A stretch of DNA of 64,000 nucleotides from a phage, in sequence record PZ445511.1, one strand, 5' to 3'. How positions within the stretch are numbered: the stretch's first letter is position 1; every line of letters begins with the position of its first letter. This document shows positions 32,445 through 47,018 of this stretch, piece by piece. Made by a program: the position numbers and the translations under genes. The notes under the pieces are model-generated. The model was not told the origin of the DNA, made no database searches, and worked only from the letters and a program-made list of their open reading frames with translations.

Positions 32445-32927
32445 ATGAAAAGGAAAGAATACCCTACTAAAGAAATACTTGAAAAATATTTTGTAGCTGA
32501 TCCTGATAATGGGATACTATATAGGAAAACAAAGAAAGGTTTGAAAGAGTGTTGTGCCAATAATAAGAAATCACATCCAGATGTGGGATTTCAGGGCGAC
32601 ACCTATCAACTGCATGTCTTATTATTTATTATGTACTATGGATATAGGCCTGAAGAAGTAGATCATAAGGATACTAATCCTAGAAATAATAGGAAAAATA
32701 ATCTAAGGGACGCCTCTAGATCGCAAAATAATGCGAATAGAAACCAACAATGCAATAATACTTCTGGGTACAAAGGAGTAAGTTGGGAAGGCTCTTCCTG
32801 GAGATACCAAGTAAGACATGAAGGAAAAAATTACAGTAAAAGAGGGTTTAAAACTGCGGAAGAGGCTTTCGAGGCCTCTAAGATATTAAGAGAATCCTTA
32901 CATAAAGAATTTACTAACTTTGGTTAG
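32445..32927 (+). CDS. HNH homing endonuclease (HNH_3 plus AP2-like domain)
   Basis: 160 aa; VDHKDTNPRNN...NLR and SGYKGVSW motifs; paralog of 26830 and 37805 genes. Confidence 0.7.
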   Translation: MKRKEYPTKEILEKYFVADPDNGILYRKTKKGLKECCANNKKSHPDVGFQGDTYQLHVLLFIMYYGYRPEEVDHKDTNPRNNRKNNLRDASRSQNNANRNQQCNNTSGYKGVSWEGSSWRYQVRHEGKNYSKRGFKTAEEAFEASKILRESLHKEFTNFG

Positions 32928-35333: not shown

Positions 35334-35346
35334 TAGTTACACGTAA

Positions 35347-35383: not shown

Positions 35384-35537
35384 GCTTTTCTATATTTAAG
35401 GCAAAAGAAAAAGCCCATAAGTTATTCAACTAAGGTCTTTAGTATTTAATTCTTTAGAATCATATACTATTATTGCAGCAACAACGTGCTAACCTTAAGT
35501 GCCCTGCGATTTTCCTCTAAAAAGTTAAAAAATTCGA

Positions 35538-35566
35538 TTGCTTGAATGCTAAATTCTCTGTATAAT
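35538..35566 (+). promoter_or_regulatory. Sigma70 promoter for nadR-pnuC
   Basis: ttgctt-17bp-tataat; leader identical to the one at 37402-37437. Confidence 0.6.
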
Positions 35567-35596
35567 ATATTTATAAATTTGAGAGAGGAATCAAAT

Positions 35597-36652: not shown

Positions 36653-36653
36653 T

Positions 36654-37331
36654 ATGACTAACTATCTCGTAAATGACTTTAAAAACTGGAAACCTCTGGA
36701 ATATCTGTGGCTGTTCATAGCGGTTGTCTTCATTAGTTTAGCAAACTATAATGGTACAGCTCTAGATTGGGCTACTGCAATAACCAATGTGGTTTGTGTT
36801 ATTCTGGTTGCAAAAGGACGTATTTCCAACTATATTTGGGGCTTAGTGGGTGTTCTTACATATGGTATTACAGCTTTAAACGCAGATCTTTATGGTAACG
36901 CTGCACTAAACCTGCTATACTACGTTCCTATGCAGTTTTATGGAATGTACTTATGGCATAAAAATAAGCCAAGTAATCTGCCAGATGTTCCAACTAAGGT
37001 TCTGACTAAAGCCCAAGCTCTGCTGACTCTAGGGATTCTAGCAGTAGCCACGTTAGGGTATGGTAGTTTCTTAGCTACTACGGCTGATCCATTTCCAATG
37101 TTGGATGCATTTACTGCTGTAGGTAGTGTGATCGCTATGTGGCTTATGGTTAAGCAATATGCCGAGCAGTGGCTGATCTGGATTGCTATTAACATTGGTA
37201 CTGTGTACATTTGGCTTGTAACTGCTCAATCTACAGGTGCATCTTATGCAATCCTAGCAATGTGGCTAGTATTCTTAGGTAACTCTATTATAGGAGCCTA
37301 TAAAGGATACTTTGTACGCGTTAACAAATAA
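36654..37331 (+). CDS. pnuC: PnuC-like nicotinamide riboside transporter
   Basis: Multi-helix membrane protein with conserved W/Y-rich PnuC-like blocks; coupled to nadR. Confidence 0.65.
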   Translation: MTNYLVNDFKNWKPLEYLWLFIAVVFISLANYNGTALDWATAITNVVCVILVAKGRISNYIWGLVGVLTYGITALNADLYGNAALNLLYYVPMQFYGMYLWHKNKPSNLPDVPTKVLTKAQALLTLGILAVATLGYGSFLATTADPFPMLDAFTAVGSVIAMWLMVKQYAEQWLIWIAINIGTVYIWLVTAQSTGASYAILAMWLVFLGNSIIGAYKGYFVRVNK

Positions 37332-37338
37332 AGTAGTT

Positions 37339-37364
37339 ATAGCCCTCGCTTAGAGGGCTATTAT
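37339..37364 (+). terminator. Hairpin terminator after pnuC
   Basis: atagccctc-gctta-gagggctat, weak U-tract. Confidence 0.45.
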
Positions 37365-37378
37365 ACAGAAATTTTCAC

Positions 37379-37407
37379 TTGCTTAATATAGAAAATTTCT
37401 GTATAAT
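37379..37407 (+). promoter_or_regulatory. Sigma70 promoter
   Basis: ttgctt-17bp-tataat; -10 plus leader plus RBS duplicated from nadR promoter. Confidence 0.6.
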
Positions 37408-37437
37408 ATATTTATAAATTTGAGAGAGGAATCAAAT

Positions 37438-37734
37438 ATGAAACGCATTGTACTTGCATTGACTCTAGTATCTACTTCTGTATTTGCTGCTCCACAACAG
37501 GAACTTTGTCAAGTTCAAGTTTGTAATAAGCTAGAACGATTTACTCTAGACATTTGGTCCCACATTAAAGATAATATGGGTGAACAGTGTTTTGATATTG
37601 TTCTGCCAAAAGAACAAGCTGTTCCTGGGGCTGTTCTCAGCTCAGAATCACGTTGGTGGCAAGGTTCTTCTATCAACCCAACTAAGAAGTCAGTGACACG
37701 TATCAAACAAGTATATCAGTGCAACGTTCAGTAA
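37438..37734 (+). CDS. Secreted Cys-containing protein
   Basis: Signal peptide MKRIVLALTLVSTSVFA then mature domain with 4 Cys. Confidence 0.55.
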   Translation: MKRIVLALTLVSTSVFAAPQQELCQVQVCNKLERFTLDIWSHIKDNMGEQCFDIVLPKEQAVPGAVLSSESRWWQGSSINPTKKSVTRIKQVYQCNVQ

Positions 37735-37742
37735 AATTTCAC

Positions 37743-37771
37743 TTGCTTAATGCCGAAATTTTCTGTATAAT
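37743..37771 (+). promoter_or_regulatory. Sigma70 promoter
   Basis: ttgctt-17bp-tataat. Confidence 0.55.
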
Positions 37772-37804
37772 ATATTCATAAATTTGGAAGATTAGGAACT
37801 ATTT

Positions 37805-38314
37805 ATGTTAGACTATGAGTCTATACTTTATAGATTCCGTTTAGAAGATGGTGTACTGGTGTGGAATCCGCTCTCCGGAAACTCCAGAGAGGAGAAGATA
37901 TTTAATACTAAGTTTGCCAATAAACCTGCGGGATCTTTGCACAAAAGCTCTGGGTATATCAGAGTTAACGTTGATCACCAAGATTACTTAGCTCATATCA
38001 TAGTATTTATACTATGATATGGGTATAGGCCGGAAATGGTTGATCATAAAGACTGCAATAAGTTAAATATACATCCTTTAAATTTAAGAGCAGCGGATAG
38101 TACCACTAATACTCATAATGCTAGTAAATCTTCTAGGAATACTAGCGGATTTAAGGGAGTATCCTACCACAAAGCATCTGGTCAGTGGCAGGGTAGAATA
38201 ATGTTTAAAGGTAAGTCATACTCCGCAGGGCTGCACAGTACTCCTGAAGCAGCAAATGAAGCTCTAATTCAACTGAGAGAGAAACTTCATGGGGAATATG
38301 CCCGAAATAATTAA
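37805..38314 (+). pseudogene. HNH homing endonuclease interrupted by in-frame TGA at 38015-38017
   Basis: Reading continues in the same frame across TGA: ...AHIIVFIL-stop-YGYRPEMVDHKDC..., matching the paralog sequence FIMYYGYRPEEVDHKD. Confidence 0.55.
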
Positions 38315-38403
38315 GGAAGAATAGCATAACGGTATTGCAGCAGATTGCTAATCTGTCGGTTTGAAACATAGCCTTGTGGGTTCGATTCCCACTTCTTCCG
38401 CCA
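38315..38403 (+). tRNA. tRNA-Ser (anticodon GCT), class II
   Basis: Acceptor ggaagaa/ttcttcc, anticodon loop ttgctaa, long variable arm, T-arm gtgggTTCGATTcccac, CCA. Confidence 0.75.
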
Positions 38404-38408
38404 AATTT

Positions 38409-38486
38409 GGTTCTCAAGCTCATTTGGTATGAGCCGTCGCCTCATAAGCGAAAGGTAGGTAGGTTCGAATCCTCCGGGAGCCACCA
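38409..38486 (+). tRNA. tRNA with CAT anticodon (Met or Ile2)
   Basis: Acceptor ggttctc/gggagcc (two G-U), D-arm gctc...gagc, anticodon loop ctcataa, T-loop TTCGAAT, CCA; A at position 8. Confidence 0.65.
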
Positions 38487-38635
38487 GATAACTAGGAGAC
38501 TTTATGTCACGCTTTCACGAAATTAAGCAAGAACTAGAAGAATGTATGTGTACTGAATGTTGGGGTTCTGGCACTTAATGTTCCAGTGACTGGATTCCCT
38601 GATTGGCTGCAAGGTTACGAACTCTAACAAAATTT

Positions 38636-38721
38636 GGATCTGTGGTGGAATTGGCAATACACACCATGCTTAAAACGTGGCGCTTAAATGATTGAGGGTT
38701 CGAGCCCCTCCAGATCCACCA
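38636..38721 (+). tRNA. tRNA-Leu (anticodon TAA), class II
   Basis: Acceptor ggatctg/cagatcc, anticodon loop cttaaaa, 13-nt variable arm, T-arm gagggTTCGAGCccctc, CCA. Confidence 0.75.
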
Positions 38722-38737
38722 AATTAAGGAAGTAAAA

Positions 38738-38860
38738 ATGAAATCTATTAAGAAAGCTATTCGTGAACTTATCCGTTGTCGCTTCCATAACATCAAGGCT
38801 TCAACTAATGGTACTACTTACGATCGCTATGATCCTAAGTTTGGCTTACATTCTAAATAA
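38738..38860 (+). CDS. Hypothetical small protein
   Basis: 40-aa ORF with aaggaag RBS. Confidence 0.35.
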   Translation: MKSIKKAIRELIRCRFHNIKASTNGTTYDRYDPKFGLHSK

Positions 38861-38873
38861 CTGGAGAAAACAA

Positions 38874-39080
38874 ATGGCTAATCCTGAAATTACGGCACAA
38901 CGTTTTATGCTGAAAGGAATTATTGCTGAAGCAGGCGTGACACAAGAAGTGGAAGATTTCCATAAGCAGTTCCTAAATATTCTCACTCAAGCCAAAGAGC
39001 TAGGAGAGAAAGAACATGGCGCGGCTATTATGGCAATCACATTGGTTGGGCTTGATCTGGCAGAAGAATCAGGAGTTTAA
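38874..39080 (+). CDS. Hypothetical protein
   Basis: 68 aa from ATG after ggagaaa RBS. Confidence 0.45.
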   Translation: MANPEITAQRFMLKGIIAEAGVTQEVEDFHKQFLNILTQAKELGEKEHGAAIMAITLVGLDLAEESGV

Positions 39081-39110
39081 CTTCTCCAAGCAGAAATTTT
39101 AAAAATGTAC

Positions 39111-39140
39111 TTGCTTTTTACTTAAGATTTCTGCTATAAT
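39111..39140 (+). promoter_or_regulatory. Sigma70 promoter
   Basis: ttgctt-18bp-tataat. Confidence 0.5.
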
Positions 39141-39169
39141 AGTTATATAAGTTGATGAGAGGAATCAGA

Positions 39170-39445
39170 ATGTTAAAACGTTTTGCAGCAACTGGTATTG
39201 AAAGCTCAGTATGTAAATCCTGGGGTGGTTGGGAAGGTGAGATCGAGTGGCTTTATTTCTACAATGTAGAACTTCTTCCAGAGATCAAAGCTCAATGTAT
39301 TGAGGCTGGTATGGCTCCTGATGCTACGGCTGATGTTGAAATCAGCATGAATAAGCTAGAGGGTCGAGTAGTCACTGTTACTGATGAAGGTGAAGAGGTA
39401 TTCGAACTTCCATTCACTTTGAAAGTCACTCCTTCATTTGATTAA
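39170..39445 (+). CDS. Hypothetical protein
   Basis: 91 aa from ATG after gagagg RBS. Confidence 0.5.
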   Translation: MLKRFAATGIESSVCKSWGGWEGEIEWLYFYNVELLPEIKAQCIEAGMAPDATADVEISMNKLEGRVVTVTDEGEEVFELPFTLKVTPSFD

Positions 39446-39483
39446 CTGATACAGCACTTGAGCAAGTTCTTTAAAATTTGACT

Positions 39484-39512
39484 TGCTCAAGTGCCTTAAA
39501 ACTTGATATAAT
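39484..39512 (+). promoter_or_regulatory. Sigma70 promoter for tRNA transcription unit; -35 lies inside a 13-bp inverted repeat
   Basis: ttgctc-17bp-tataat; approx 124-nt leader before tRNA-Tyr. Confidence 0.55.
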
Positions 39513-39636
39513 AGTTACCTAATTTGGAAACATATCTGAATGAGAAGTAATTAAGCGAGTTGCTTTGAGGGATAAAGTCAGGATAGCCGGAAATATTCCA
39601 CCTTGAGTTTAACCGACTTACTTTTCATTCAAATAT

Positions 39637-39717
39637 GGGGGATTGGCTCAGTGGCGACGGCGCCTGGCTGTAGACCGGGTATATCACGCGGAGGTTCGAG
39701 TCCTCCATCCCCCACCA
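39637..39717 (+). tRNA. tRNA-Tyr (anticodon GTA)
   Basis: Acceptor gggggat/atccccc, anticodon stem cctgg/ccggg with loop ctgtaga, extended variable region, T-arm ggaggTTCGAGTcctcc, CCA. Confidence 0.7.
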
Positions 39718-39725
39718 AAATTAAT

Positions 39726-39800
39726 GCACCTATCGTCTAATGGTTAGGACATCAGGATTTCAATCTGAGAATTGAACTCCGATTCTCCGTGGGTGTGCCA
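39726..39800 (+). tRNA. tRNA-Glu-like (anticodon TTC) with degenerate T-arm
   Basis: Good acceptor, D- and anticodon arms (loop atttcaa); T-arm tgaac/tccgatt/ctccg pairs poorly; CCA encoded. Confidence 0.45.
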
Positions 39801-39809
39801 ATTAATAAT

Positions 39810-39880
39810 TGGGGTACACATAGGTTGCTAGTGGGCCTCCAAAACCCATGAAAAGGTTTCGAATACCTTTACCCCTGCCA
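39810..39880 (+). tRNA. tRNA-Trp-like (anticodon CCA) with truncated D-arm
   Basis: Canonical T-arm aaggtTTCGAATacctt and CCA; anticodon loop ctccaaa with C31-A39 mismatch; U1-U72 mismatch; only 15 nt for the D region. Confidence 0.35.
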
Positions 39881-39886
39881 ATATTT

Positions 39887-39961
39887 GCACCTTTAGCTGA
39901 GATGGATTAGCGCTTGCCTGAAGAGCTTGAGAGGTTCGTTCAATTCGAACAGGGTGCACCA
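39887..39961 (+). tRNA. tRNA-Phe (anticodon GAA), weak anticodon stem
   Basis: Acceptor gcacctt/agggtgc, D-arm gctg...tagc, anticodon loop ctgaaga, T-arm gttcgTTCAATTcgaac, CCA. Confidence 0.55.
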
Positions 39962-39978
39962 ATTTGAAGGAGATGCTG

Positions 39979-40251
39979 ATGCATCCTGAAAACTTCTTTA
40001 TATACTGTACTAGTCCTTTGCTTAAACGCCGGATTAATAAAGTATATCACTACAGAGCTAGTCAACAGCCTTATGTTTATGATTCTAGTGGAGATCATAT
40101 TCCACTTGAGCAACTAGGGACTGATTATATGGTTTTGAAGCACTTTAATGAGGCGAAGATCTCTAGCGTTCATAACCGACAAAACTCTAAAACGTGGTGG
40201 CATAAGAAGCGTAAGAAAGGCATCAAATTTCTTAAAAATGTAGTTGCTTAA
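39979..40251 (+). CDS. Hypothetical protein
   Basis: Track ORF begins at TTG 39964 abutting the tRNA; ATG at 39979 has aggag at proper spacing. Confidence 0.45.
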   Translation: MHPENFFIYCTSPLLKRRINKVYHYRASQQPYVYDSSGDHIPLEQLGTDYMVLKHFNEAKISSVHNRQNSKTWWHKKRKKGIKFLKNVVA

Positions 40252-40272
40252 ATCCTTAAAGTTCTGTATAAT
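40244..40272 (+). promoter_or_regulatory. Sigma70 promoter
   Basis: ttgctt-17bp-tataat overlapping upstream stop codon. Confidence 0.55.
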
Positions 40273-40300
40273 TATTACATAAATTGAACTGGAGAACTAG

Positions 40301-40489
40301 ATGAAAGCACCTAAACCGAAATTAGTTAAGTTCGACTGCTGTGATACTGAAATCTTATTTACTAAGTTTGGTGAATTTAAGATGTGTGAATGTGGAACAT
40401 GTGGTTACGATCATGGTGATGGATATTATTGCAGAACCCTAGGGCCTTCTGAACTAATCCACTTCTCATGGCCGGAAAGTAAAGAATAA
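40301..40489 (+). CDS. Hypothetical Cys-rich small protein
   Basis: 62 aa with CC...CxC...CxxC pattern; ggagaa RBS. Confidence 0.5.
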   Translation: MKAPKPKLVKFDCCDTEILFTKFGEFKMCECGTCGYDHGDGYYCRTLGPSELIHFSWPESKE

Positions 40490-40491
40490 TA

Positions 40492-40567
40492 CGACCGTTG
40501 GCTGAATGGCTTAGGCGGAGGCCTGCAAAACCTCCTTATGTGAGTTCGAATCTCATGCGGTCGTCCA
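40492..40567 (+). tRNA. tRNA-Cys (anticodon GCA)
   Basis: Acceptor cgaccgt/gcggtcg, anticodon loop ctgcaaa (C31-A39), T-arm gtgagTTCGAATctcat, CCA. Confidence 0.65.
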
Positions 40568-40719
40568 ATTTGCTGAAAGAATTGTTAAATCAATTCAGGC
40601 ACGCGTAGGAACACTGCCTCAGTAATTGAAAGATGAGGCACGGTTTGGAGAGGTATGCCGCTACACGCTACGGTGCTAACTCCGTCTAGGTGAAAATCCT
40701 AGTCAGCAATATAAATTTA

Positions 40720-40802
40720 GGGTCGTTAGCCAAGCGGTTTGGCGGTGGACTGTTAATCCATGTCGAAAGACAACGTAGGTTCGAATCCTACACGGCCCGC
40801 CA
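40720..40802 (+). tRNA. tRNA with GTT anticodon (Asn) and unusual 13-nt variable arm
   Basis: Acceptor gggtcgt/acggccc, D-arm gcca...tggc, anticodon loop ctgttaa, variable gtcgaaagacaac, T-arm gtaggTTCGAATcctac, CCA. Confidence 0.65.
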
Positions 40803-40905
40803 TATTCTATGTAGGATTAAGTAAACCGGTAGCCAACCAGCTATCATTACTGATATCGAATTCAGTCACAGATACCATTTTTCACTAACAACTGAGGAAA
40901 TAGAT

Positions 40906-41091
40906 ATGACAACTCGTGCAATTGCTCGACTAGAAGCTGATCGTGATAATCTGATTAATAATATTAAGGTTCGTGGTAATATTATTAAGGCTCTGAAAGC
41001 TGAACTTCTTGAAGAACTTCAAGGTCAAGTAGAGCGTCGTGAAGCTCTAAAAGAGGTTGAGGAAGCTATCGAAAAACTCAAGGCTGAATAA
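40906..41091 (+). CDS. Hypothetical coiled-coil protein
   Basis: 61-aa ORF with gaggaaa RBS. Confidence 0.5.
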   Translation: MTTRAIARLEADRDNLINNIKVRGNIIKALKAELLEELQGQVERREALKEVEEAIEKLKAE

Positions 41092-41094
41092 ATT

Positions 41095-41676
41095 ATGCAC
41101 GGAATATCCTTACCCATTCCAGGGTTTGAGGAGTACTTAGTAAGTTTGGATGGGTTAGTATTTAGTATCAAATCAAACAAAATACTAACCCCAATAACCA
41201 GTAATTATGGATACTTATCTATACGTCTCCATAAAAATGGTCAACAGAGAAATACCGGTGTACATAGGATTTTAGCATGTGCATTTAAGAAATTACCAAG
41301 TCTAGACTCTGAACTAGAAGTTGACCATATTAACACAGACATTACTTATTGGGGTCTTAATAACTTACAAGTGCTCACAAAAGAGCAGCATCTAGAAAAG
41401 ACTTTAAAAGATAAAGGATTTAGTAAACTAAATCATGATAATTGTTGTAAGGATTGTGGTAAAGCTATTTCTTTAAAAGCTGAAAAATGTCAGGAGTGCT
41501 CTTCACATAAACCAAAAGATATCTCTATAACTAAAGAAATAATCGAGGTTACAGTAAGAGAGCTAGGCTGGTCAGGTGCAGGGAGAAAGTTAAATTATTC
41601 AGATAATGGGTTGCGTAAAAGATACACTTCTTTAGGAGGCAATCCTAAAGAACTTAAAAAGTTAAAGGTACTATAG
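41095..41676 (+). CDS. HNH homing endonuclease (NUMOD4-like N-terminus, HNH core, C-terminal zinc ribbon)
   Basis: 193 aa; GFEEYLVSLDG, VHRILA...VDHINTD...NL, CCKDCGK...CQEC. Confidence 0.7.
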   Translation: MHGISLPIPGFEEYLVSLDGLVFSIKSNKILTPITSNYGYLSIRLHKNGQQRNTGVHRILACAFKKLPSLDSELEVDHINTDITYWGLNNLQVLTKEQHLEKTLKDKGFSKLNHDNCCKDCGKAISLKAEKCQECSSHKPKDISITKEIIEVTVRELGWSGAGRKLNYSDNGLRKRYTSLGGNPKELKKLKVL

Positions 41677-41741
41677 TCTAACGGTTAGGATACTCCCCTG
41701 TCACGGGAGAGGTAGGGTTTCGATTACCCTTAGTACCGCCA
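41667..41741 (+). tRNA. tRNA-Asp (anticodon GTC)
   Basis: Acceptor ggtacta/tagtacc, anticodon stem ctccc/gggag loop ctgtcac, T-arm agggtTTCGATTaccct, CCA; 5' end overlaps HNH gene stop. Confidence 0.8.
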
Positions 41742-41747
41742 AATTAT

Positions 41748-41824
41748 ACATCCATAGCTCAACTGGTCAGAGCTACCGCCTCTTAAGCGGAGGGTTGAAG
41801 GTTCAAGTCCTTCTGGGAGTACCA
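41748..41824 (+). tRNA. tRNA-Lys (anticodon CTT)
   Basis: D-arm gctc...gagc, anticodon loop ctcttaa, T-arm gaaggTTCAAGTccttc, CCA; one acceptor mismatch. Confidence 0.65.
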
Positions 41825-42027
41825 AACAAATAGAGTAAAGGCTACAGTAGGTGCACCCTTACGGACTGCTACACCGGACTCTATTCATTAACAAACATTC
41901 TAGCGTGGTGGAGAGGGGACACCAGCTGTGCGAGGGTAGAAGCTTGTTCGATTCAAGTGAAAGAATGGTTCTCGTAAATCCGCAGCAGTGATAGTAGGTT
42001 CAAGTCCTACCTAGATTGACTTATTAT

Positions 42028-42101
42028 GCGTTCGTAGTTAAAAGGTATAATTTTTGGTTGCCAACCAGAAGTTGAGGGTTCGATTCCCTCCGACCGCACC
42101 A
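42028..42101 (+). tRNA. tRNA-Gly (anticodon GCC)
   Basis: Acceptor gcgttcg/cgaccgc (one mismatch), anticodon loop ttgccaa, T-arm gagggTTCGATTccctc, CCA. Confidence 0.7.
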
Positions 42102-42351
42102 AATTTAGGGTTCTGCTTCCTAGAGAACGGACTCCTAGATAAACAAGGCGATGAGTTTCCGGCCGGTTCTAGTCGCTGAAAATCCTCCCGACCAGGTAGG
42201 TGTAGGTAAACGAAAGTTTACTTATTGAGTAGGTTCCGATAGATCGGCGGATCTATTCTGGCATTTAAGAGAAGTCTCGCAAACTTCTTTGTCAGCAGAG
42301 CGTTTGAAGCGTGAGGTGGCCTACACAATAAGTAAATTTATTAAAAACTCA

Positions 42352-42381
42352 TTTGCTATTTCACTTAATTCTCTTTATAAT
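42352..42381 (+). promoter_or_regulatory. Sigma70 promoter for tRNA transcription unit
   Basis: ttgcta-18bp-tataat directly upstream of tRNA-Pro. Confidence 0.55.
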
Positions 42382-42413
42382 ATATCTTATAAAGTGAGTT
42401 AACAAAGAATATT

Positions 42414-42491
42414 CTCCGTGTAGCTCAGTTTGGCCAGAGCGTTCCGTTTGGGGCGGTAGGGTCGGGGGTTCAAATCCTCCCACGGAGACCA
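42414..42491 (+). tRNA. tRNA-Pro (anticodon TGG)
   Basis: Acceptor ctccgtg/cacggag, D-arm gctc...gagc, anticodon loop tttgggg (G37), T-arm gggggTTCAAATcctcc, CCA. Confidence 0.75.
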
Positions 42492-42497
42492 AACAAT

Positions 42498-42575
42498 TGC
42501 GGGTTAGATCTCTGGTAGAGATCGCTAGTCTCATAAGCTAGAAAGAGGTAGGTTCGATTCCTACACCCGCTTCCA
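42498..42575 (+). tRNA. tRNA with CAT anticodon (Met-type; unpaired 1-72, possibly initiator-like)
   Basis: Anticodon stem ctagt/gctag loop ctcataa, T-arm gtaggTTCGATTcctac, CCA; position 1 U opposite U72. Confidence 0.6.
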
Positions 42576-42594
42576 ATTTAATAGAGGATACGAA

Positions 42595-42759
42595 ATGAAA
42601 TTATTTCGATTGGTAGTAAGTGATAGACGGTCTAGCAAAGATCGTTCGAAGTATACCTTAGCCCATTATGGGAAAGATGAAAATGAAGTAATGGCTGAAT
42701 TTGGTATTAATCATCGCTACTTAGAAGTTTACTCTATTAAGGAAGTTTATCCGTATTAA
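42595..42759 (+). CDS. Hypothetical small protein
   Basis: 54-aa ORF with agagga RBS between two tRNAs. Confidence 0.4.
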   Translation: MKLFRLVVSDRRSSKDRSKYTLAHYGKDENEVMAEFGINHRYLEVYSIKEVYPY

Positions 42760-42837
42760 GGGTCGTTAGCTCAATTGGTTAGTAGCACTTGCCTTTTAAG
42801 CAATAGGTTGAAGGTTCGAGTCCTTCACGACCCACCA
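42760..42837 (+). tRNA. tRNA-Lys (anticodon TTT)
   Basis: Acceptor gggtcgt/acgaccc, anticodon loop cttttaa, T-arm gaaggTTCGAGTccttc, CCA. Confidence 0.75.
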
Positions 42838-42846
42838 AATTACTTT

Positions 42847-42920
42847 GCTCGGTTAGTTTAATGGGAGAACCCCGTCTTTACACGGCGGTTGCGATAGTTC
42901 GATTCTATCACCGAGTACCA
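42847..42920 (+). tRNA. tRNA-Val (anticodon TAC)
   Basis: Acceptor gctcggt/accgagt, anticodon stem ccgtc/ggcgg loop tttacac, T-arm gatagTTCGATTctatc, CCA. Confidence 0.75.
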
Positions 42921-42939
42921 ATTAACTCAAAATAAGGAA

Positions 42940-43299
42940 TTGCAAATGCAATTATCAAGCAAGATTCAAGGCTATTTTGGTCATGTAACAATGGAGTTCG
43001 CTATCTCTAAAGGTTGGGATTTCGAGCAAGATCTAGCTGAGTTCTACAAAGATATTGATCTGAACGTACCATACATGGGACTCTCCACTGGTCAAGAGAT
43101 CACAGAAGGCGATGTGTTCAAGGCAAGTCAAGGTGAGGTAACACCTAATTTTGCCAAGTTCTGGTTAGGACTTACTTTGAAGGAAGATGCACCAGAGGAT
43201 GGTGTGGTTATGCAGAGTATGCACTCTGGAAGCTCTGATTACCTTTTCGTTAGCGACGTTAAGGAACTACAAGAAATCGCTAAAAATGTACTTGCTTGA
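42940..43299 (+). CDS. Hypothetical protein
   Basis: 119-aa ORF (TTG start per track; internal ATG 6 nt later) after aaggaa RBS. Confidence 0.5.
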   Translation: MQMQLSSKIQGYFGHVTMEFAISKGWDFEQDLAEFYKDIDLNVPYMGLSTGQEITEGDVFKASQGEVTPNFAKFWLGLTLKEDAPEDGVVMQSMHSGSSDYLFVSDVKELQEIAKNVLA

Positions 43300-43320
43300 T
43301 GCTTAATTTCTTGTTATAAT
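43292..43320 (+). promoter_or_regulatory. Sigma70 promoter overlapping upstream stop codon
   Basis: ttgctt-17bp-tataat then gatgagga-GAAA-tcctcatc hairpin in leader. Confidence 0.55.
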
Positions 43321-43582
43321 ATTTATATAAATTGATGAGGAGAAATCCTCATCAAAGTTCACTAAGGTATTAGCTCGACCTAGGGCTGGCTGCCAAAAAG
43401 CACAATTGCAATTAGACCCCTAATGGCGGGGGATACTTTGCAATAAGTTCTAGATTAGTCCACTAGATTCAGTGGCAACTGAATAGTGTATCGGGTTTGT
43501 GAAGAGCGGTTATCCTCTACTGGCTAATGTCTGAGGGTAATACGCACACCGAGCTAATAGCCTTAGTAAACTTAAAGATTTT

Positions 43583-43661
43583 GGGGAATGGGTCTGCTTG
43601 GAGTGGACACCTCGCTTGCACCGAGGATATCAGAAGAGTTCGAATCTCTTATTCTCCACCA
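43583..43661 (+). tRNA. tRNA-Ala-like (anticodon TGC), G3-U70 present, 7-nt variable loop
   Basis: Acceptor ggggaat/attctcc with G3-U70, anticodon stem cctcg/cgagg loop cttgcac, T-arm aagagTTCGAATctctt, CCA. Confidence 0.55.
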
Positions 43662-43666
43662 AATTC

Positions 43667-43742
43667 GGGGTCATAGGTTATTTGGTTAAACTTACTGCCT
43701 TGCAAGCAGTGGAACTCAGTTCAATTCTGAGTGACTCCACCA
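43667..43742 (+). tRNA. tRNA-Ala (anticodon TGC)
   Basis: Acceptor ggggtca/tgactcc with G3-U70, anticodon stem actgc/gcagt loop cttgcaa, T-arm ctcagTTCAATTctgag, CCA. Confidence 0.7.
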
Positions 43743-43761
43743 AACAAATTAAGGAAATAAT

Positions 43762-43980
43762 ATGGTATTCTTAGCAGCCTCTGTAGTTCTTGCAGCTTTA
43801 GCACTAGCTATCTATTTTAGAACTATTAAAGATTTAGCTAAAGAAAAGAAAACTTTCTTTACTGATTATTCTTGGGGCGCTCCATATAACGTCCGCTTTA
43901 TCAGCTTAGAAGCTATGCTGATAATGGTATTCAGTGGCATAGGTTCCATTGTTGCAGGGTTACTATTTATTTCTAACTAA
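43762..43980 (+). CDS. Hypothetical small membrane protein
   Basis: 72 aa with two hydrophobic helices; aaggaaa RBS. Confidence 0.5.
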   Translation: MVFLAASVVLAALALAIYFRTIKDLAKEKKTFFTDYSWGAPYNVRFISLEAMLIMVFSGIGSIVAGLLFISN

Positions 43981-43987
43981 ATAAAAT

Positions 43988-44068
43988 GGGGATGTGGCGA
44001 AATTGGCAGACGCGCTAGATTTAGGTTCTAGTCTTCGGGTGTGGGTTCGAGTCCCTCCATCCCTACCA
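43988..44068 (+). tRNA. tRNA-Leu (anticodon TAG), class II
   Basis: Acceptor ggggatg/catccct, anticodon stem ctaga/tctag loop tttaggt, long variable arm, T-loop TTCGAGT, CCA. Confidence 0.7.
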
Positions 44069-44084
44069 AACATTGGATTAACTC

Positions 44085-44261
44085 ATGATGAAAACTCCTA
44101 TAACTGATATCTGGTTAGCTGTTAATACATCAACTAAAGAGTATGTGTTTATAGAGTATGGTCAGAGGTATGACCAAAAGATGTATAATCTCATACTTCC
44201 AGTATCTGCTAATGAAGTTTATGATTTAATCCTGAGATCTACGGAAGAGCAAATCGATTAG
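44085..44261 (+). CDS. Hypothetical small protein
   Basis: 58-aa ORF; 3' end overlaps tRNA-Ser(GGA). Confidence 0.35.
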   Translation: MMKTPITDIWLAVNTSTKEYVFIEYGQRYDQKMYNLILPVSANEVYDLILRSTEEQID

Positions 44262-44335
44262 GTGACGAAAACCGCTTGGAAAGTGGCTGACTTGTTAAAG
44301 CAGGCTTGAGAGTTCGAATCTCTCTTCTTCCGCCA
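44243..44335 (+). tRNA. tRNA-Ser (anticodon GGA), class II
   Basis: Acceptor ggaagag/ttcttcc, anticodon loop ttggaaa, approx 20-nt variable arm, T-arm gagagTTCGAATctctc, CCA. Confidence 0.55.
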
Positions 44336-44356
44336 AACAACTAATAGGGAATATAA

Positions 44357-44599
44357 ATGAAAGTCAAGATTATGATGTTGGATTTAGCTAATGATAAGTT
44401 TTTCTTGCGTCATACATTCCCTAGTAAGCAAGCTTTAGAGTTTCATATCAAGTACGCAATGGGCATGAAACTTCCTGAGCGAGAAATATTTGATAAAGCA
44501 TGTGATACTGGAGTTATTTATGTATGGCAAACAACCTATCATGATAATCCAGAAGATCTTCGAAAAGAAGTAGAACAAATACTAGAAGATAGTACGTAG
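44357..44599 (+). CDS. Hypothetical protein
   Basis: 80-aa ORF; 3' end overlaps tRNA-Ser(TGA). Confidence 0.45.
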   Translation: MKVKIMMLDLANDKFFLRHTFPSKQALEFHIKYAMGMKLPEREIFDKACDTGVIYVWQTTYHDNPEDLRKEVEQILEDST

Positions 44600-44673
44600 T
44601 GGTATGTAACCGGTCTTGAAAACCGGCCCGCTGTAGTGATACGGTGATGGTTCGACTCCATTATCTTCTGCCA
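44584..44673 (+). tRNA. tRNA-Ser (anticodon TGA), class II
   Basis: Acceptor agaagat/atcttct, anticodon stem ccggt/accgg loop cttgaaa, long variable arm, T-arm gatggTTCGACTccatt, CCA. Confidence 0.7.
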
Positions 44674-44998
44674 AATCTTGAAGTATGCCGGAATCGGTAG
44701 ACGGGGCTTCCTAAAGGGCGTAAGGGGAACATCCACTCCTCATAAGATACCCGAAAACGAGGCTGAGATAACTGGTCTATCTCGTGAAGGTTCGAGTCCT
44801 TCTGCTTCTTGATATTCATCAATGGCTCAAAGTGTAACGGTGCTATTTGATGCTCTTAGTAAGACTTTCCCGACATGCGTTCGGGAGTAAGCTGCTAAGG
44901 CTAGAGTAGAAGAGTTTCGGAGAGCCGCCACAATTGAAGTCTTTAGAATGGGTATCGCCCTTTAGCCCCTCCGAAAGGGATAACTAGAGATTTCAATT

Positions 44999-45075
44999 GT
45001 GGCTATATCATAATTGGTTAATGATCCTGATTGTGAATCAGGCCTATGTGGATTCGAATTCCACTAGCCACCCCA
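44999..45075 (+). tRNA. tRNA-His (anticodon GTG)
   Basis: Acceptor gtggcta/tagccac, discriminator C, anticodon stem cctga/tcagg loop ttgtgaa, T-arm gtggaTTCGAATtccac, CCA. Confidence 0.75.
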
Positions 45076-45081
45076 AATATT

Positions 45082-45156
45082 GCGTCCTTATTTCAACGGA
45101 AAGAATGTAAAGCTACGAACTTTACGATCGGGGTTCGATTCCCTGAGGATGCACCA
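45082..45156 (+). tRNA. tRNA-Arg (anticodon ACG)
   Basis: Acceptor gcgtcct/aggatgc, anticodon stem taaag/cttta loop ctacgaa, T-arm cggggTTCGATTccctg, CCA. Confidence 0.75.
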
Positions 45157-45180
45157 ATTAACTTAAACAGGAAATAAAAT

Positions 45181-45381
45181 ATGGCTGATTTCTGCAAAGA
45201 ATGCTCTATTGATATGTGGGGCAGAGATACTGGTGATCTTTCTGGTCTGATTACAGAAGCCGAAGTTAAAGAAGGCTATGGTGCTGTTGTAATCTGTGAA
45301 GGTTGTGGCATTATCCGTGTTGATCATAATGGTAAACGTCTAGAAGAACCTGATCCAATCGCCACGGTTCCTGTAGAATAA
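45181..45381 (+). CDS. Hypothetical zinc-ribbon-like small protein
   Basis: 66 aa with CxxC...CxxC; ggaaataaaat upstream. Confidence 0.5.
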   Translation: MADFCKECSIDMWGRDTGDLSGLITEAEVKEGYGAVVICEGCGIIRVDHNGKRLEEPDPIATVPVE

Positions 45382-45388
45382 AAATTAT

Positions 45389-45464
45389 TGGGATGTAGAT
45401 CAATTGGTAGATCGTCGGCCTCTGACTCCGAAGGTTCCACGTTCGATCCGTGGCATCCCAGCCA
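45389..45464 (+). tRNA. tRNA-Gln (anticodon CTG)
   Basis: U1-A72 acceptor tgggatg/catccca, D-arm gatc...gatc, anticodon loop ctctgac, T-arm ccacgTTCGATCcgtgg, CCA. Confidence 0.7.
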
Positions 45465-45470
45465 AACAAT

Positions 45471-45546
45471 TGGAGAGTAGTGTAACGGTTAGCACAACGG
45501 CCTTTGACTCCGTTAATGGTAGGTTCGATTCCTCCTTCTCCAGCCA
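45471..45546 (+). tRNA. tRNA-Gln (anticodon TTG)
   Basis: U1-A72 acceptor tggagag/ttctcca, anticodon loop ctttgac, T-loop TTCGATT, CCA. Confidence 0.7.
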
Positions 45547-45552
45547 ATTTAT

Positions 45553-45627
45553 GCGTGATTAGTTCAGTGGCTAGAATAACTGGCTTCCAACCAGTAGACA
45601 CGAGTTCGACTCTCGTATCCCGCACCA
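45553..45627 (+). tRNA. tRNA-Gly (anticodon TCC)
   Basis: Anticodon stem actgg/ccagt loop cttccaa, T-arm acgagTTCGACTctcgt, CCA; one acceptor mismatch. Confidence 0.7.
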
Positions 45628-45643
45628 AATATAAGGAAACGTT

Positions 45644-45865
45644 ATGGACGTTTTTGAGTTTCGTAATAAAAATCCTAATAGACGAGTTTTAATTATTGGT
45701 GAAACATACCGAGCTTATGAACAGGAAGACGGTTCGGTTTTATTAAATGATGAAAAGCAAGGCTATAGCTTTCATCCAGAAGAAACATATGAAGAATTTC
45801 GTACTAAGTTTCTTTTACCAGACTGGCTAGCAATAGCTGAGCAAAGAGAACCCGAAGAGGGCTGA
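45644..45865 (+). CDS. Hypothetical protein
   Basis: 73-aa ORF with aaggaaa RBS. Confidence 0.5.
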   Translation: MDVFEFRNKNPNRRVLIIGETYRAYEQEDGSVLLNDEKQGYSFHPEETYEEFRTKFLLPDWLAIAEQREPEEG

Positions 45866-46032
45866 TAATCTAAAGCTAAAGGTTGATAAGCAAATGAAGT
45901 GTGTTGAGGTTGAGTTGGGTGAAGAACGTTTAAAACTCTCATTCGAATTTCTACAGCAGTTGGCTATGACAGTAATGTCTGATAAGTCCCTTATATTTGA
46001 AAAAGAAATCCCGTTGAAATAATGGGTTTATT

Positions 46033-46107
46033 GCTCCTAAAGCATTGCTGGCGATGCAGTTGCCTTGTAAGCATCTGAACCGGGTTCGATTCCAGGTGGG
46101 AGCACCA
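46033..46107 (+). tRNA. tRNA-Thr (anticodon TGT)
   Basis: Acceptor gctccta/tgggagc, D-arm gcat...atgc, anticodon loop cttgtaa, T-loop TTCGATT, CCA. Confidence 0.65.
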
Positions 46108-46123
46108 AATTTAAAAAATTCAT

Positions 46124-46152
46124 TTGCCTTCTCTCTTATTTCTTGTTATAAT
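46124..46152 (+). promoter_or_regulatory. Sigma70 promoter
   Basis: ttgcct-17bp-tataat. Confidence 0.5.
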
Positions 46153-46182
46153 ATTTATATAAATTAATTAGAGGGAAACCAA

Positions 46183-46476
46183 ATGAAACGTTATCTTTCT
46201 GTCGTGTTCCAAACTGGTGGTCAACGCTACACTTATGAATTTCCTGAGTCCTGGAAAATTAAAGAAGGTGATCAAGTTGTTGTATTAACACCTCGTGAAG
46301 GCTTCAAAGTAGTAACGGTTAAACAAGTATTTCCAAAAGATCACGAACCATCTAAGTCTATTCAGTACAAGATGATTCACGGTCTGGTACGAAAAGTACC
46401 TAGAACAGAAGTCGAAGTAGATAAAACTGGGGGAGTTAAGTATCAATATACATCCTACTTAGACGAGATGATGTAA
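46183..46476 (+). CDS. Hypothetical protein
   Basis: 97-aa ORF with gagggaaa RBS. Confidence 0.55.
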   Translation: MKRYLSVVFQTGGQRYTYEFPESWKIKEGDQVVVLTPREGFKVVTVKQVFPKDHEPSKSIQYKMIHGLVRKVPRTEVEVDKTGGVKYQYTSYLDEMM

Positions 46477-46676
46477 TGAGAATTACTTTCACAGAAAAGA
46501 TTATGTGTAATGGTGTTATGATCATTACAGCGTGGGACGGTAAATTGTGGTGTAACGTATCTGGTCTAAAGCCAGAAGATCAAACACCTGAAAACATCCG
46601 CAAAGTAAAGCGAAAAATGGCGGAACGTGCCCAACTTCCAGGTGCTCCAAGAAATGGAGGCTATTTTTCAACCTAA
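46476..46676 (+). CDS. Hypothetical protein
   Basis: 66-aa ORF, ATGA-coupled. Confidence 0.45.
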   Translation: MRITFTEKIMCNGVMIITAWDGKLWCNVSGLKPEDQTPENIRKVKRKMAERAQLPGAPRNGGYFST

Positions 46677-46677
46677 T

Positions 46678-46753
46678 GCTCCGATAGTTCAACAGGTTAG
46701 AACAGGCGACCGATAATCGTCAAATCTTGGTTCGATCCCAAGTCGGAGTACCA
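46678..46753 (+). tRNA. tRNA-Ile (anticodon GAT)
   Basis: Acceptor gctccga/tcggagt, D-arm gttc...gaac, anticodon stem ggcga/tcgtc loop ccgataa (C33), T-arm cttggTTCGATCccaag, CCA. Confidence 0.65.
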
Positions 46754-46759
46754 AATTAT

Positions 46760-46835
46760 AGTTAGTTGGCAGAACGGTTATGCACCTCCTTCATACGGAG
46801 CGACTACAGTGGTTCAACTCCACTACTAACTACCA
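46760..46835 (+). tRNA. tRNA with CAT anticodon (Met or Ile2)
   Basis: Acceptor agttagt/actaact, anticodon loop ttcatac, T-arm agtggTTCAACTccact, CCA. Confidence 0.6.
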
Positions 46836-47018
46836 AAGATAAGATCAGGCCTTTGTGCCAGATCTCTGTGTTTATTAAACTGAATGGGACTATCAATCCA
46901 CAAGCCGGACTACGAGCGATTATCGGGTATTCACTTAATAAACAGCCTGCCTCCCAGTTTTTATCTTGCTTCTGGGTTAACAAAAAGCTGAGCCAAATTC
47001 TAACATCAGGGAGATCTA

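What the first reader, a model, noticed from the sequence alone, without database searches (positions are those of the whole stretch)
41095..41741. HNH endonuclease gene abutting and overlapping a tRNA gene
The 193-aa HNH gene ends 10 nt inside tRNA-Asp. Other HNH genes flank the array at 32445 and 37805, and small ORFs overlap tRNA-Ser genes at 44243 and 44584. This fits free-standing homing endonucleases inserted next to tRNA genes that they may target in related phages.
Basis: partly seen in the sequence, partly recalled or inferred. Interest (0 to 1): 0.5.

Follow-up and report, generated by a model that had tools for sequence, protein, structure and literature searches.

The report
Mobile HNH nuclease–tRNA-Asp cassette
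In this T5-like Salmonella phage a selfish nuclease gene related to T5's F-TflI and F-TflII runs straight into a tRNA-Asp gene, and the two travel together as a 647-bp mobile unit that replaces a very different tRNA-Asp gene in related phages; this is a well-documented new example of a known kind of element.

Summary
ORF 41095-41676 (193 aa) ends with TAG at positions 8-10 of tRNA-Asp (41667-41741), a 10-nt overlap.

The window is an Epseptimavirus, about 99.9% identical to Salmonella phage S147. The protein is a full-length paralogue of T5 F-TflII (43% identity) and F-TflI (38%). Its model matches I-HmuI, its catalytic and zinc residues are invariant, and dN/dS is 0.07-0.15.

The HNH gene and its tRNA-Asp (the "W" allele) occur as one block in 58 phage records at 97.7-99.7% identity (80% in SSP1). 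The borders are sharp: neighbouring genes fall to 61-80% identity. About 353 records instead carry a different "S" tRNA-Asp (about 66% identical, sharing only the anticodon arm) with no HNH. Dead S/W chimeras, HNH-deletion scars and one metagenomic contig with the HNH inside an S-type tRNA-Asp record recombination at this site.

Reading into the next tRNA is a family trait: 9 of 9 intact paralogue/tRNA pairs in annotated records. It is also true of most other nuclease genes in these arrays (15/17 against 6/28 other ORFs).

Cleavage of the S allele and throttling of expression by tRNA processing remain inferences. This is a new member of a known kind; interest is moderate.

The parts
41095..41676 (+). 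Free-standing HNH homing-endonuclease gene (193 aa). Predicted domains in order: NUMOD4-type N-terminal DNA-binding sheet, HNH motif, Cys4 zinc ribbon, C-terminal helix-turn-helix. Paralogue of T5 F-TflII and F-TflI.
41667..41741 (+). tRNA-Asp(GUC), the 'W' allele. It travels with the HNH gene and is the only tRNA-Asp in the window.
   Evidence: 63.1 bits. The allele is about 66-68% identical to the common S allele. It is found full-length in 66 records, 58 of them with the HNH.
41667..41676 (+). The 10-nt overlap. The last residues (K)VL and the stop TAG of the HNH ORF are encoded by tRNA positions 1-10. RNase P cleavage at 41666/41667 would remove the stop codon from the mRNA.
   Evidence: The processing consequence is an inference; the literature precedent is.
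41089..41099 (+). Left border of the cassette: DUF7337 stop TAA, then ATT, then the ATG of the HNH. 'AAATTATGC' matches the leader plus the first two bases (GC) of the S-type tRNA-Asp at empty sites.
40906..41091 (+). DUF7337 gene (61 aa), the conserved left flank present in both HNH-plus and HNH-minus phages.
   Evidence: It is 76-80% identical in S124 and mar003J3, where the HNH is 97-99% identical.
41748..41824 (+). tRNA-Lys(ctt), the right flank just outside the cassette.
   Evidence: It is 61% identical in S124 and mar003J3, against 99-100% for tRNA-Asp.
32445..32927 (+). A second intact HNH endonuclease gene of a different family (PHROG_99; HNH_3 plus an AP2-like domain). It ends 38 nt before a weak tRNA-like gene.
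37805..38314 (+). HNH-AP2 gene of the PHROG_99 family, split by an in-frame stop at 38015-38017 (a Tyr codon in the intact paralogue). A decaying nuclease gene that ends exactly at tRNA-Ser(gct) 38315.
44357..44599 (+). Conserved 80-aa ORF of unknown function (PHROG_32148) that ends 16 nt inside tRNA-Ser(tga) 44584-44673.
44085..44261 (+). Conserved 58-aa ORF (PHROG_11405) that ends about 16 nt inside a tRNA-Ser(gga)-like gene at about 44246-44335.

Best explanation
Bases 41095-41741 form one mobile module: a free-standing HNH homing-endonuclease gene of the T5 F-TflI/F-TflII family, fused at its 3' end to its own tRNA-Asp allele (W).

**Shown**
- The gene is intact and under purifying selection.
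- The module occurs as a unit with sharp borders in some T5-like phages. It is allelic to a bare, very different tRNA-Asp (S) in most others.
- Recombinants and deletion derivatives exist.
- HNH and tRNA have no promoter or terminator between them, so they sit on one transcript.

**Inferred**
- During co-infection the enzyme, probably a strand-specific nickase like I-HmuI and F-TflII, cuts the S-type tRNA-Asp gene of an HNH-less phage.
- Recombinational repair then copies the HNH together with the W allele. W keeps tRNA-Asp function but differs at the D, T and acceptor arms, and so is not cut.
- Because the ORF has no stop codon of its own, RNase P maturation of tRNA-Asp severs the stop from the mRNA. 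Each transcript then yields either a mature tRNA or full-length nuclease, which keeps nuclease levels low. The fusion also leaves no homologous spacer in which recombination could separate the nuclease from its resistant allele.
For: - **Identity.** BLASTP gives 43% identity to F-TflII (E 4e-42) and 38% to F-TflI (E 2e-30) over the full length. The AF2 model has pLDDT 88, and the top PDB match is I-HmuI 1U3E (E 1.8e-7, probability 1.0). Residues D77, H78, N90 and H99, the Cys ribbon and the DNGLRK-Y helix are invariant or nearly so across 17 homologues. dN/dS is 0.065-0.15.
- **Mobility.** The 647-bp unit is whole in 58 records at 97.7-99.7% identity (80% in SSP1). The S allele is in 353 records, and none of the 40 sampled rows shows an HNH under the match. 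In S124 and mar003J3 the HNH is 97-99% and tRNA-Asp 99-100% identical, while DUF7337 is 76-80% and tRNA-Lys 61%. Empty sites in Sepoy, fuchur, S126, Stitch and T5 show the DUF7337 stop, about 9 nt, then the S tRNA.
- **Recombination footprints.** smaug carries an S 5' half joined to a W 3' half, and K38 the reverse; neither is recognised as a tRNA. NR01 and PS3-1 keep W with remnants of the HNH 3' end or the window-type DUF7337 tail, so they are deletion derivatives. Metagenomic contig L021 has 29 nt of the S 5' half, then the HNH, then a W 5' half plus anticodon arm plus an S-like 3' end.
- **Old linkage.** A 63%-identical homologue (L023) also ends 10 nt inside a W-type tRNA-Asp, in a different left context.
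- **Family trait.** Paralogues end 8-23 nt inside tRNA-Gln, Ser, Gly, Pro, Lys, Ile and Met. The tRNA alleles linked to nuclease genes are 58-77% identical to most alleles that lack one. For overlap, nuclease ORFs score 15/17 against 6/28 for other ORFs, p about 1e-5.
- **Literature.** PMC2330249 proposes that tRNA processing separates the T4 segB ORF from its stop codon, and suggests similar control for the T5 F-Tfl enzymes. F-TflII is reported to make single-strand breaks.
- **Transcript.** No promoter or terminator consensus lies between the HNH and the tRNA on the + strand.
Against: - No cleavage or nicking data exist for this protein. The target, and the resistance of W, are inferred from allele patterns only.
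- The primary F-Tfl paper (PMID 15456135) was not available, so its mapped sites could not be compared.
- The anticodon arm is the only homology between S and W. Crossovers there are expected whether or not the break is nearby.
- The L021 footprint is a single metagenomic contig.
- Some non-nuclease ORFs also end inside tRNAs (44085, 44357, Sepoy_103).
- One relative (L022) sits after tRNA-Asp and has its own TAA stop 2 nt before tRNA-Lys, so stop-in-tRNA is not obligatory.
- The Pfam HNH_3 score is below the gathering cut-off.
- Complete cross-tabulation of all roughly 480 genomes was not possible, because result lists are capped.
Confidence: 0.75

Rival explanations
1. The gene is a mobile HNH endonuclease, but the overlap with tRNA-Asp has no function. 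In a tightly packed array an inserted ORF simply runs on until it meets the TAG that most tRNAs carry at positions 8-10.
For: - Most tRNAs in the array carry TAG at positions 8-10.
- ORFs throughout the array stop within 0-10 nt of the next tRNA.
- Non-nuclease ORFs at 44085, 44357 and Sepoy_103 also overlap tRNAs.
- The relative in L022 has its own stop.
Against: - Nine of 9 intact family paralogue/tRNA pairs, at different tRNAs and in different reading frames (overlaps of 8, 10, 14 and 23 nt), lack a stop codon of their own.
- Nuclease ORFs overlap far more often than other ORFs in the same arrays (15/17 against 6/28).
- An analogous arrangement in T4 segB has been linked to processing.
Confidence: 0.3
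2. The S/W tRNA-Asp dimorphism is maintained by selection from host tRNA-targeting defences or by translational needs. The HNH gene merely hitch-hikes beside the W allele and targets something else, or nothing.
For: - Many tRNAs in these arrays exist as highly divergent alleles even without an adjacent nuclease gene (Cys, Pro, Tyr, Ala).
- T5-like phage tRNAs are implicated in evading tRNA-cleaving defences.
- W looks more canonical than S: it has U8 and G2:C71, read directly from the sequences.
Against: - The block border coincides exactly with HNH plus tRNA-Asp.
- W without HNH is rare (about 8 of 66), and the NR01 and PS3-1 cases carry HNH deletion scars.
- The anticodon arm, the usual target of anticodon nucleases, is the one part that does not differ between S and W.
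- The same link between a nuclease gene and a divergent allele recurs at about 10 other tRNAs.
Confidence: 0.15
3. The nuclease has been domesticated for a phage function, such as generating recombinogenic nicks or amplifying the tRNA/anti-defence region as reported for T4/T6 SegB, rather than acting mainly as a selfish homing element.
For: - There is strong purifying selection (dN/dS 0.07-0.15).
- The linkage to tRNA-Asp is old (L023).
- SegB promotes segmental amplification of a tRNA locus under defence pressure.
Against: - The gene is absent from about 85% of related phages.
- Degraded copies of the family and of other nuclease genes are common: misterkot, AhSzw-1 and window 37805-38314.
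- The patchy distribution and near-identical copies across species fit a selfish element.
Confidence: 0.1

Closest known systems
T5 F-TflII (hegD, T5.061) and F-TflI (hegC, T5.064), H-N-H endonucleases of the T5 tRNA gene region (Akulenko et al. 2004, PMID 15456135)
   Same: - Full-length homology: 43% and 38% identity.
- Same length (193-194 aa) and same domain order.
- Same genomic niche in the tRNA array.
- Same layout, with the ORF ending inside the next tRNA: tRNA-Gln(CUG) by 23 nt and tRNA-Ser(GGA) by 14 nt.
   Different: - It is a paralogue, not an orthologue: it sits before tRNA-Asp, where T5 itself has an empty S-type site.
- Its specificity is presumably different.
- Its activity is untested.
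I-HmuI (PDB 1U3E), the intron-encoded HNH nicking homing endonuclease of Bacillus phage SPO1
   Same: - Best structural and sequence match in the PDB.
- N-terminal DNA-binding sheet followed by a beta-beta-alpha-metal HNH core.
- Modular, extended architecture with a C-terminal helix-turn-helix.
   Different: - The window's gene is free-standing, not intron-encoded. Only tRNA families reach Rfam gathering scores across 30000-49000.
- It has an extra Cys4 zinc ribbon.
- Only about 113 residues align.
T4 SegB, a GIY-YIG homing endonuclease in the T4 tRNA gene cluster (PMC2330249)
   Same: - A free-standing nuclease gene embedded in a phage tRNA cluster.
- It cleaves tRNA genes of a related phage and drives preferential inheritance of the tRNA region.
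- tRNA maturation cuts the transcript between the last sense codon and the stop codon.
   Different: - An unrelated nuclease fold (GIY-YIG, not HNH).
- It makes double-strand breaks.
- In T4 the ORF abuts the tRNA rather than borrowing its stop from inside it.
T5orf172 (GIY-YIG-like) nuclease genes of T5-like phages, such as T5.069
   Same: - Same arrays and same layout: they end 10-24 nt inside tRNA-Asn, tRNA-Lys and tRNA-Glu.
- They are linked to divergent tRNA alleles.
   Different: A different protein family.

Membership tests
F-TflI/F-TflII family (T5 hegC/hegD) | Full-length sequence homology to F-TflII and F-TflI | tested here: met
   BLASTP gives 43% identity (E 4e-42) and 38% identity (E 2e-30), covering about residues 6-189. 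The names come from the AY543070 annotation.
F-TflI/F-TflII family (T5 hegC/hegD) | NUMOD4 plus HNH_3 domain architecture with an intact HNH motif | tested here: met
   NUMOD4 scores 24.2 bits against a cut-off of 23.4. HNH_3 scores 18.5, below its cut-off of 24.8. However, D77, H78, N90 and H99 are invariant in 17 homologues, and the fold matches I-HmuI.
F-TflI/F-TflII family (T5 hegC/hegD) | Location in the tRNA gene cluster of a T5-like phage, directly 5' of a tRNA gene | tested here: met
F-TflI/F-TflII family (T5 hegC/hegD) | Site-specific single-strand (nicking) endonuclease activity | not testable with these tools
   Known only second-hand for F-TflII. The primary paper is not held.
Free-standing homing endonuclease gene (intronless homing) | Presence/absence polymorphism at the same locus among close relatives | tested here: met
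   58 records carry the cassette and about 353 have the S-type empty site. Both states occur within the genus Epseptimavirus.
Free-standing homing endonuclease gene (intronless homing) | The element is more conserved than its flanks and has discrete borders, a sign of recent horizontal spread | tested here: met
   HNH plus tRNA-Asp is 97-100% identical, against 61-80% for the adjacent DUF7337 and tRNA-Lys in S124 and mar003J3.
Free-standing homing endonuclease gene (intronless homing) | The enzyme cleaves the allele that lacks it, and its own allele is resistant | not testable with these tools
   Indirect evidence only: S and W differ everywhere except the anticodon arm, and L021 shows a possible break footprint.
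Free-standing homing endonuclease gene (intronless homing) | Biased inheritance in mixed infection that depends on the nuclease | not testable with these tools
   Requires phage crosses.
I-HmuI-like intron-encoded HNH endonucleases | Beta-beta-alpha-metal fold with an N-terminal DNA-binding sheet | tested here: met
   AF2 pLDDT 88.3. Foldseek against 1U3E gives E 1.8e-7 over 113 columns at 32% identity.
I-HmuI-like intron-encoded HNH endonucleases | Encoded within a group I intron | tested here: not met
   Only tRNA families reach Rfam gathering scores across 30000-49000. The ORF lies between a protein-coding gene and a tRNA, and at empty sites there is no split host gene.

The most novel reading that the evidence does not exclude
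The tRNA arrays of T5-like phages may be built largely from 'nuclease plus tRNA' cassettes. In this reading, each homing endonuclease (of the HNH F-TflI/II type, the T5orf172 type and others) carries its own cleavage-resistant tRNA allele fused to its 3' end. It overwrites the sensitive allele in rival phages, so nuclease drive, not translation or host defence, would be the main engine of tRNA allele turnover and of dead chimeric tRNAs. Having the stop codon inside the tRNA would be a selected device that couples nuclease dosage to RNase P processing and makes nuclease and immunity allele inseparable.
Probability: 0.35. Interest if true: 0.55.

Novelty: new member of a known kind. Interest (0 to 1): 0.38.

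Why it matters
- **A concrete test system.** It gives a sequence-defined donor and recipient pair (HNH plus W against S tRNA-Asp) for testing intronless homing by an HNH nickase in T5-like phages. These phages are widely used for biocontrol and as models for tRNA-based escape from defence.
- **Explains local mosaicism.** It accounts for mosaic structure, broken tRNA genes and annotation problems in these genomes. The overlapping HNH ORF is often left unannotated.
- **A wider hypothesis.** If the cassette principle holds across the array, selfish nucleases shape which tRNA alleles phages carry. That would bear on current work on phage tRNAs as anti-defence tools.

Tried and rejected
1. **Primary paper.** I tried to read Akulenko et al. 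2004 (PMID 15456135) to compare the mapped F-Tfl cleavage sites. It is not held, so only secondary statements were used.
2. **Small ORFs as HNH remnants.** I considered that ORFs 44085 and 44357 were remnants of an F-TflI-like gene. Rejected: both are full-length matches to PHROGs of unknown function.
3. **Group I intron.** I considered an intron context, as for I-HmuI. Rejected: only tRNA families reach Rfam gathering scores, and the empty sites show no split gene.
4. **Pseudogene or chance ORF.** Rejected by dN/dS of 0.07-0.15 and invariant catalytic residues.
5. **IMG/VR scans.** They returned only 2 and 13 loci, mostly already-known isolates. They added three more family examples but no population sample.
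6. **KKP_3822 as a W-without-HNH case.** The region between the HNH start codon and the tRNA is G/T-rich junk, probably an assembly artefact, so it was not used.
7. **Dedicated promoter or terminator.** The consensus scan found none on the + strand between the HNH and the tRNA.
8. **Full cross-tabulation.** A complete table of HNH, S and W across all records was not possible, because result lists are capped at 60 rows.

Full report
**1. What is in the window**

ARAGORN finds 28 tRNA genes on the + strand between 32965 and 46835, and Rfam confirms them. ORF 41095-41676 (+, 193 aa) ends with TAG at 41674-41676. tRNA-Asp(GUC) starts at 41667, so the overlap is 10 nt and the stop codon occupies tRNA positions 8-10.

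Megablast shows the window is a T5-like phage (Demerecviridae, Epseptimavirus). It is about 99.9% identical to Salmonella phage S147 over 40600-42200. No promoter or terminator consensus lies between the ORF and the tRNA on the + strand. The ATG follows the stop of the upstream DUF7337 gene by 3 nt, so the ORF and the tRNA are part of one polycistronic transcript.

**2. What the protein is**

- **Family hits.** Pfam gives NUMOD4 (24.2 bits, above cut-off) and HNH_3 (18.5 bits, below cut-off). PHROG_59 "HNH endonuclease" scores 1.2e-22. The only solved relative by sequence is I-HmuI, 1U3E (2e-4).
- **Structure.** An AlphaFold2 model built on 17 homologues has mean pLDDT 88.3. Its only significant PDB match is I-HmuI (E 1.8e-7, probability 1.0, 113 columns, 32% identity).
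- **Named relatives.** In the Ksenzenko-lab annotation of T5 (AY543070), the two closest T5 proteins are hegD (F-TflII) and hegC (F-TflI). BLASTP gives 43% identity (E 4e-42) and 38% (E 2e-30) over essentially the full length.
- **Conserved residues.** D77, H78, N90 and H99, the cysteines C118, C121, C132 and C135, and a C-terminal D-N-G-L-R-K-x-Y helix are invariant or nearly so.
- **Selection.** dN/dS against diverged copies is 0.065-0.15, so this is a functional gene.
- **Activity.** F-TflII is reported second-hand to make single-strand breaks. The primary paper was not available.

**3. Presence/absence and the unit that moves**

- **Two alleles.** A query made by joining the two flanks finds contiguous "empty sites" in Sepoy, fuchur, phage 1-19 and SLAM_phiST45. 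Alignments show the DUF7337 stop, about 9 nt, then a tRNA-Asp. That tRNA-Asp (the S allele) is a different gene version from the one in the window (the W allele). The two are about 66-68% identical and share only the roughly 21-nt anticodon stem-loop; the acceptor, D and T arms all differ.
- **Counts.** S occurs full-length in 353 phage records, and none of the 40 sampled rows has an HNH under it. W occurs full-length in 66 records. The whole 647-bp HNH plus W block occurs in 58 records, at 97.7-99.7% identity, or 80% in Tequintavirus SSP1.
- **Sharp borders.** In S124 and mar003J3 the HNH is 97-99% identical and tRNA-Asp 99-100%. The adjacent DUF7337 is 76-80% and the adjacent tRNA-Lys(ctt) 61%.
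- **Exact replacement.** At the left border, "AAATTATGC" equals the S-site leader plus the first two tRNA bases. The cassette therefore replaces the S tRNA-Asp precisely.
- **Conclusion.** The mobile unit is the HNH plus its own tRNA-Asp, exactly the interval 41095-41741.

**4. Footprints of recombination and decay**

- **Chimeras.** smaug, with phagemcphageface and JLBYU43 showing the same 3' W fragment, carries an S 5' half joined to a W 3' half. Kenya-K38 and K45 carry the reciprocal W 5' / S 3' chimera. The crossovers lie in the shared anticodon arm, the acceptor stems no longer pair, and ARAGORN does not call a tRNA in the two loci examined, smaug and K38.
- **Deletion derivatives.** NR01 has W without the HNH but retains the last 11-12 nt of the HNH ORF directly after the DUF7337 stop. 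PS3-1 retains a duplicated window-type DUF7337 tail. Both look like microhomology deletions of the HNH.
- **A possible break site.** Metagenomic contig L021 (72%-identical HNH) has 29 nt of the S-type 5' half (27 of 29 matching). The HNH follows, then a W 5' half, the anticodon arm and a decayed S-like 3' end. That is an HNH plus W 5' insertion inside an S-type tRNA-Asp at about position 29/30. I read it cautiously as a possible footprint of the break site; it is a single contig.
- **Age of the linkage.** L023 (63% identical) also ends 10 nt inside a W-type tRNA-Asp although its left neighbour is tRNA-Glu, so the linkage is old.
- **An exception.** L022 (68% identical) sits after a W-like tRNA-Asp and has its own TAA stop 2 nt before tRNA-Lys.

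**5. The overlap is a family trait**

- **Why one overlap means little.** Most tRNAs carry TAG at positions 8-10, and ORFs in this array generally stop within a few nt of the next tRNA.
- **Within the family.** Every intact F-TflI/II-type paralogue examined in annotated phage records lacks a stop codon of its own and ends inside the next tRNA: Asp 10 nt, Gln 23, Ser(gga) 14, Gly 8, Pro 8, Lys(ttt) 10, Ile 10 and Met 10. IMG/VR adds Gln 49, Pro 30 and Ser(gct) 2.
- **Other nuclease families.** They behave the same way: T5orf172 genes end in Asn 24, Lys 10 and Glu 15, and other HNH genes in Leu 6, Ala 10 and Ser 5.
- **Statistics.** Across unique ORF/tRNA pairs, 15 of 17 nuclease ORFs end inside the tRNA against 6 of 28 other ORFs (Fisher p about 1e-5). 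The counts are not phylogenetically independent.
- **Linked alleles.** tRNA alleles linked to a nuclease gene are typically 58-77% identical to alleles that lack one.
- **Decay.** Degraded family copies exist in misterkot and AhSzw-1. The window's own 37805-38314 HNH-AP2 gene carries an in-frame stop. Both fit the invasion-decay-loss cycle of selfish nuclease genes.

**6. Mechanism**

*Shown:* this is a selected, intact HNH gene. It forms a discrete module with its own tRNA allele, the module is allelic to a bare S tRNA-Asp, and recombinants and deletion derivatives exist.

*Inferred:*
- The enzyme nicks or cuts the S-type tRNA-Asp gene of co-infecting HNH-less phages.
- Repair copies the HNH plus W.
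- W is resistant because recognition needs the D-arm or acceptor sequences that differ.

For the overlap, I favour the idea already proposed for T4 SegB and the F-Tfl enzymes (PMC2330249). RNase P cleavage at 41666/41667 removes the stop codon, within codon 191. Processed transcripts then become non-stop mRNAs, which limits nuclease synthesis. The fusion also prevents recombination from separating the nuclease from its immune allele. The neutral alternative, tight packing plus the built-in TAG, remains possible at about 0.3.

**7. Comparison and novelty**

This is a new paralogue of a described family (F-TflI/II), at a tRNA site that is empty in T5 itself. It works like T4 SegB-type intronless homing but with an I-HmuI-like HNH nickase. 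I found no description of the "nuclease plus own tRNA allele" cassette or of the S/W dimorphism in the searchable library. T5-like genome papers only note that homing endonucleases are the main source of local differences. I rate it a new member of a known kind, with moderate interest. The array-wide cassette model is the most novel reading still open.

Noticed in passing
window 37805-38314: An HNH-AP2 endonuclease gene of the PHROG_99 family, paralogous to 32445-32927. An in-frame stop at 38015-38017 splits it, where the intact paralogue has Tyr. The downstream piece ends exactly at the first base of tRNA-Ser(gct) 38315.
   Followed up: partly
window 44246-44335: A tRNA-Ser(gga)-like gene that default ARAGORN and Rfam gathering scores miss. 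It has a 1-nt insertion in the D-loop relative to mar003J3 and S124, and a relaxed ARAGORN run finds it. It may be impaired.
   Followed up: partly
window 39726-39797: An Rfam tRNA hit (35.2 bits) between tRNA-Tyr and tRNA-Phe that ARAGORN does not call. Relatives have tRNA-Glu or tRNA-Trp at this position, so it is probably a degenerate tRNA.
   Followed up: no
window 32965-33038: A weak tRNA (Rfam 33 bits) that ARAGORN calls 'tRNA-SeC' with anticodon TCA, which would read UGA. It lies 38 nt after the HNH gene at 32445-32927.
   Followed up: no
window 33558-34067: A 169-aa ORF with no Pfam or PHROG hit, ending 8 nt before tRNA-Arg(tct). It is about the size of a nuclease gene but is unclassified.
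   Followed up: no
window 43583-43661 and 43667-43742: Two tandem tRNA-Ala(tgc) genes that are highly divergent from each other. Each matches a different allele class seen singly in other T5-like phages, so both alleles are resident here.
   Followed up: no
L008 (smaug) about 1471-1551; L009 (Kenya-K38) about 1505-1580 and 1122-1204: Dead chimeric tRNA genes. smaug has an S 5' / W 3' tRNA-Asp and K38 has a W 5' / S 3' tRNA-Asp. K38 also has a tRNA-Asn whose 3' end, from the T-loop onward, comes from the fuchur-type allele that is linked to a T5orf172 nuclease gene.
   Followed up: partly
L021 (Logan DRR623198) 1449-1477 and 2054-2130: A 29-nt 5' fragment of an S-type tRNA-Asp lies directly upstream of an HNH homologue. 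A hybrid W/S tRNA remnant lies downstream. This is a possible footprint of nuclease-gene insertion into its target.
   Followed up: partly
L004 (S126) 2445-2516: A tRNA with the body of tRNA-Gly(gcc), but with anticodon GTC and an extra T, annotated as a second tRNA-Asp.
   Followed up: no
L015 (T5 AY543070) record 29344-29419: The tRNA-Gln(CUG) overlapped by F-TflII is flagged as a pseudogene in the T5 annotation. The notes say that several T5 tRNAs, including tRNA-Ser2 next to F-TflI, cannot be converted to suppressors. tRNAs linked to nuclease genes are therefore not always functional.
   Followed up: no
L010 (KKP_3822) about 1260-1500: After the HNH start codon, the gene is replaced by about 250 nt of G/T-rich low-complexity sequence before a W-type tRNA-Asp. 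This is probably an assembly or sequencing artefact.
   Followed up: no
Phage records listed: In many GenBank records (for example RA40, PMBT36, MET_P1_137_112, mar003J3, EH1 and EH3) the HNH ORF is not annotated at all, or is called a hypothetical protein. This is probably because it overlaps the tRNA.
   Followed up: no
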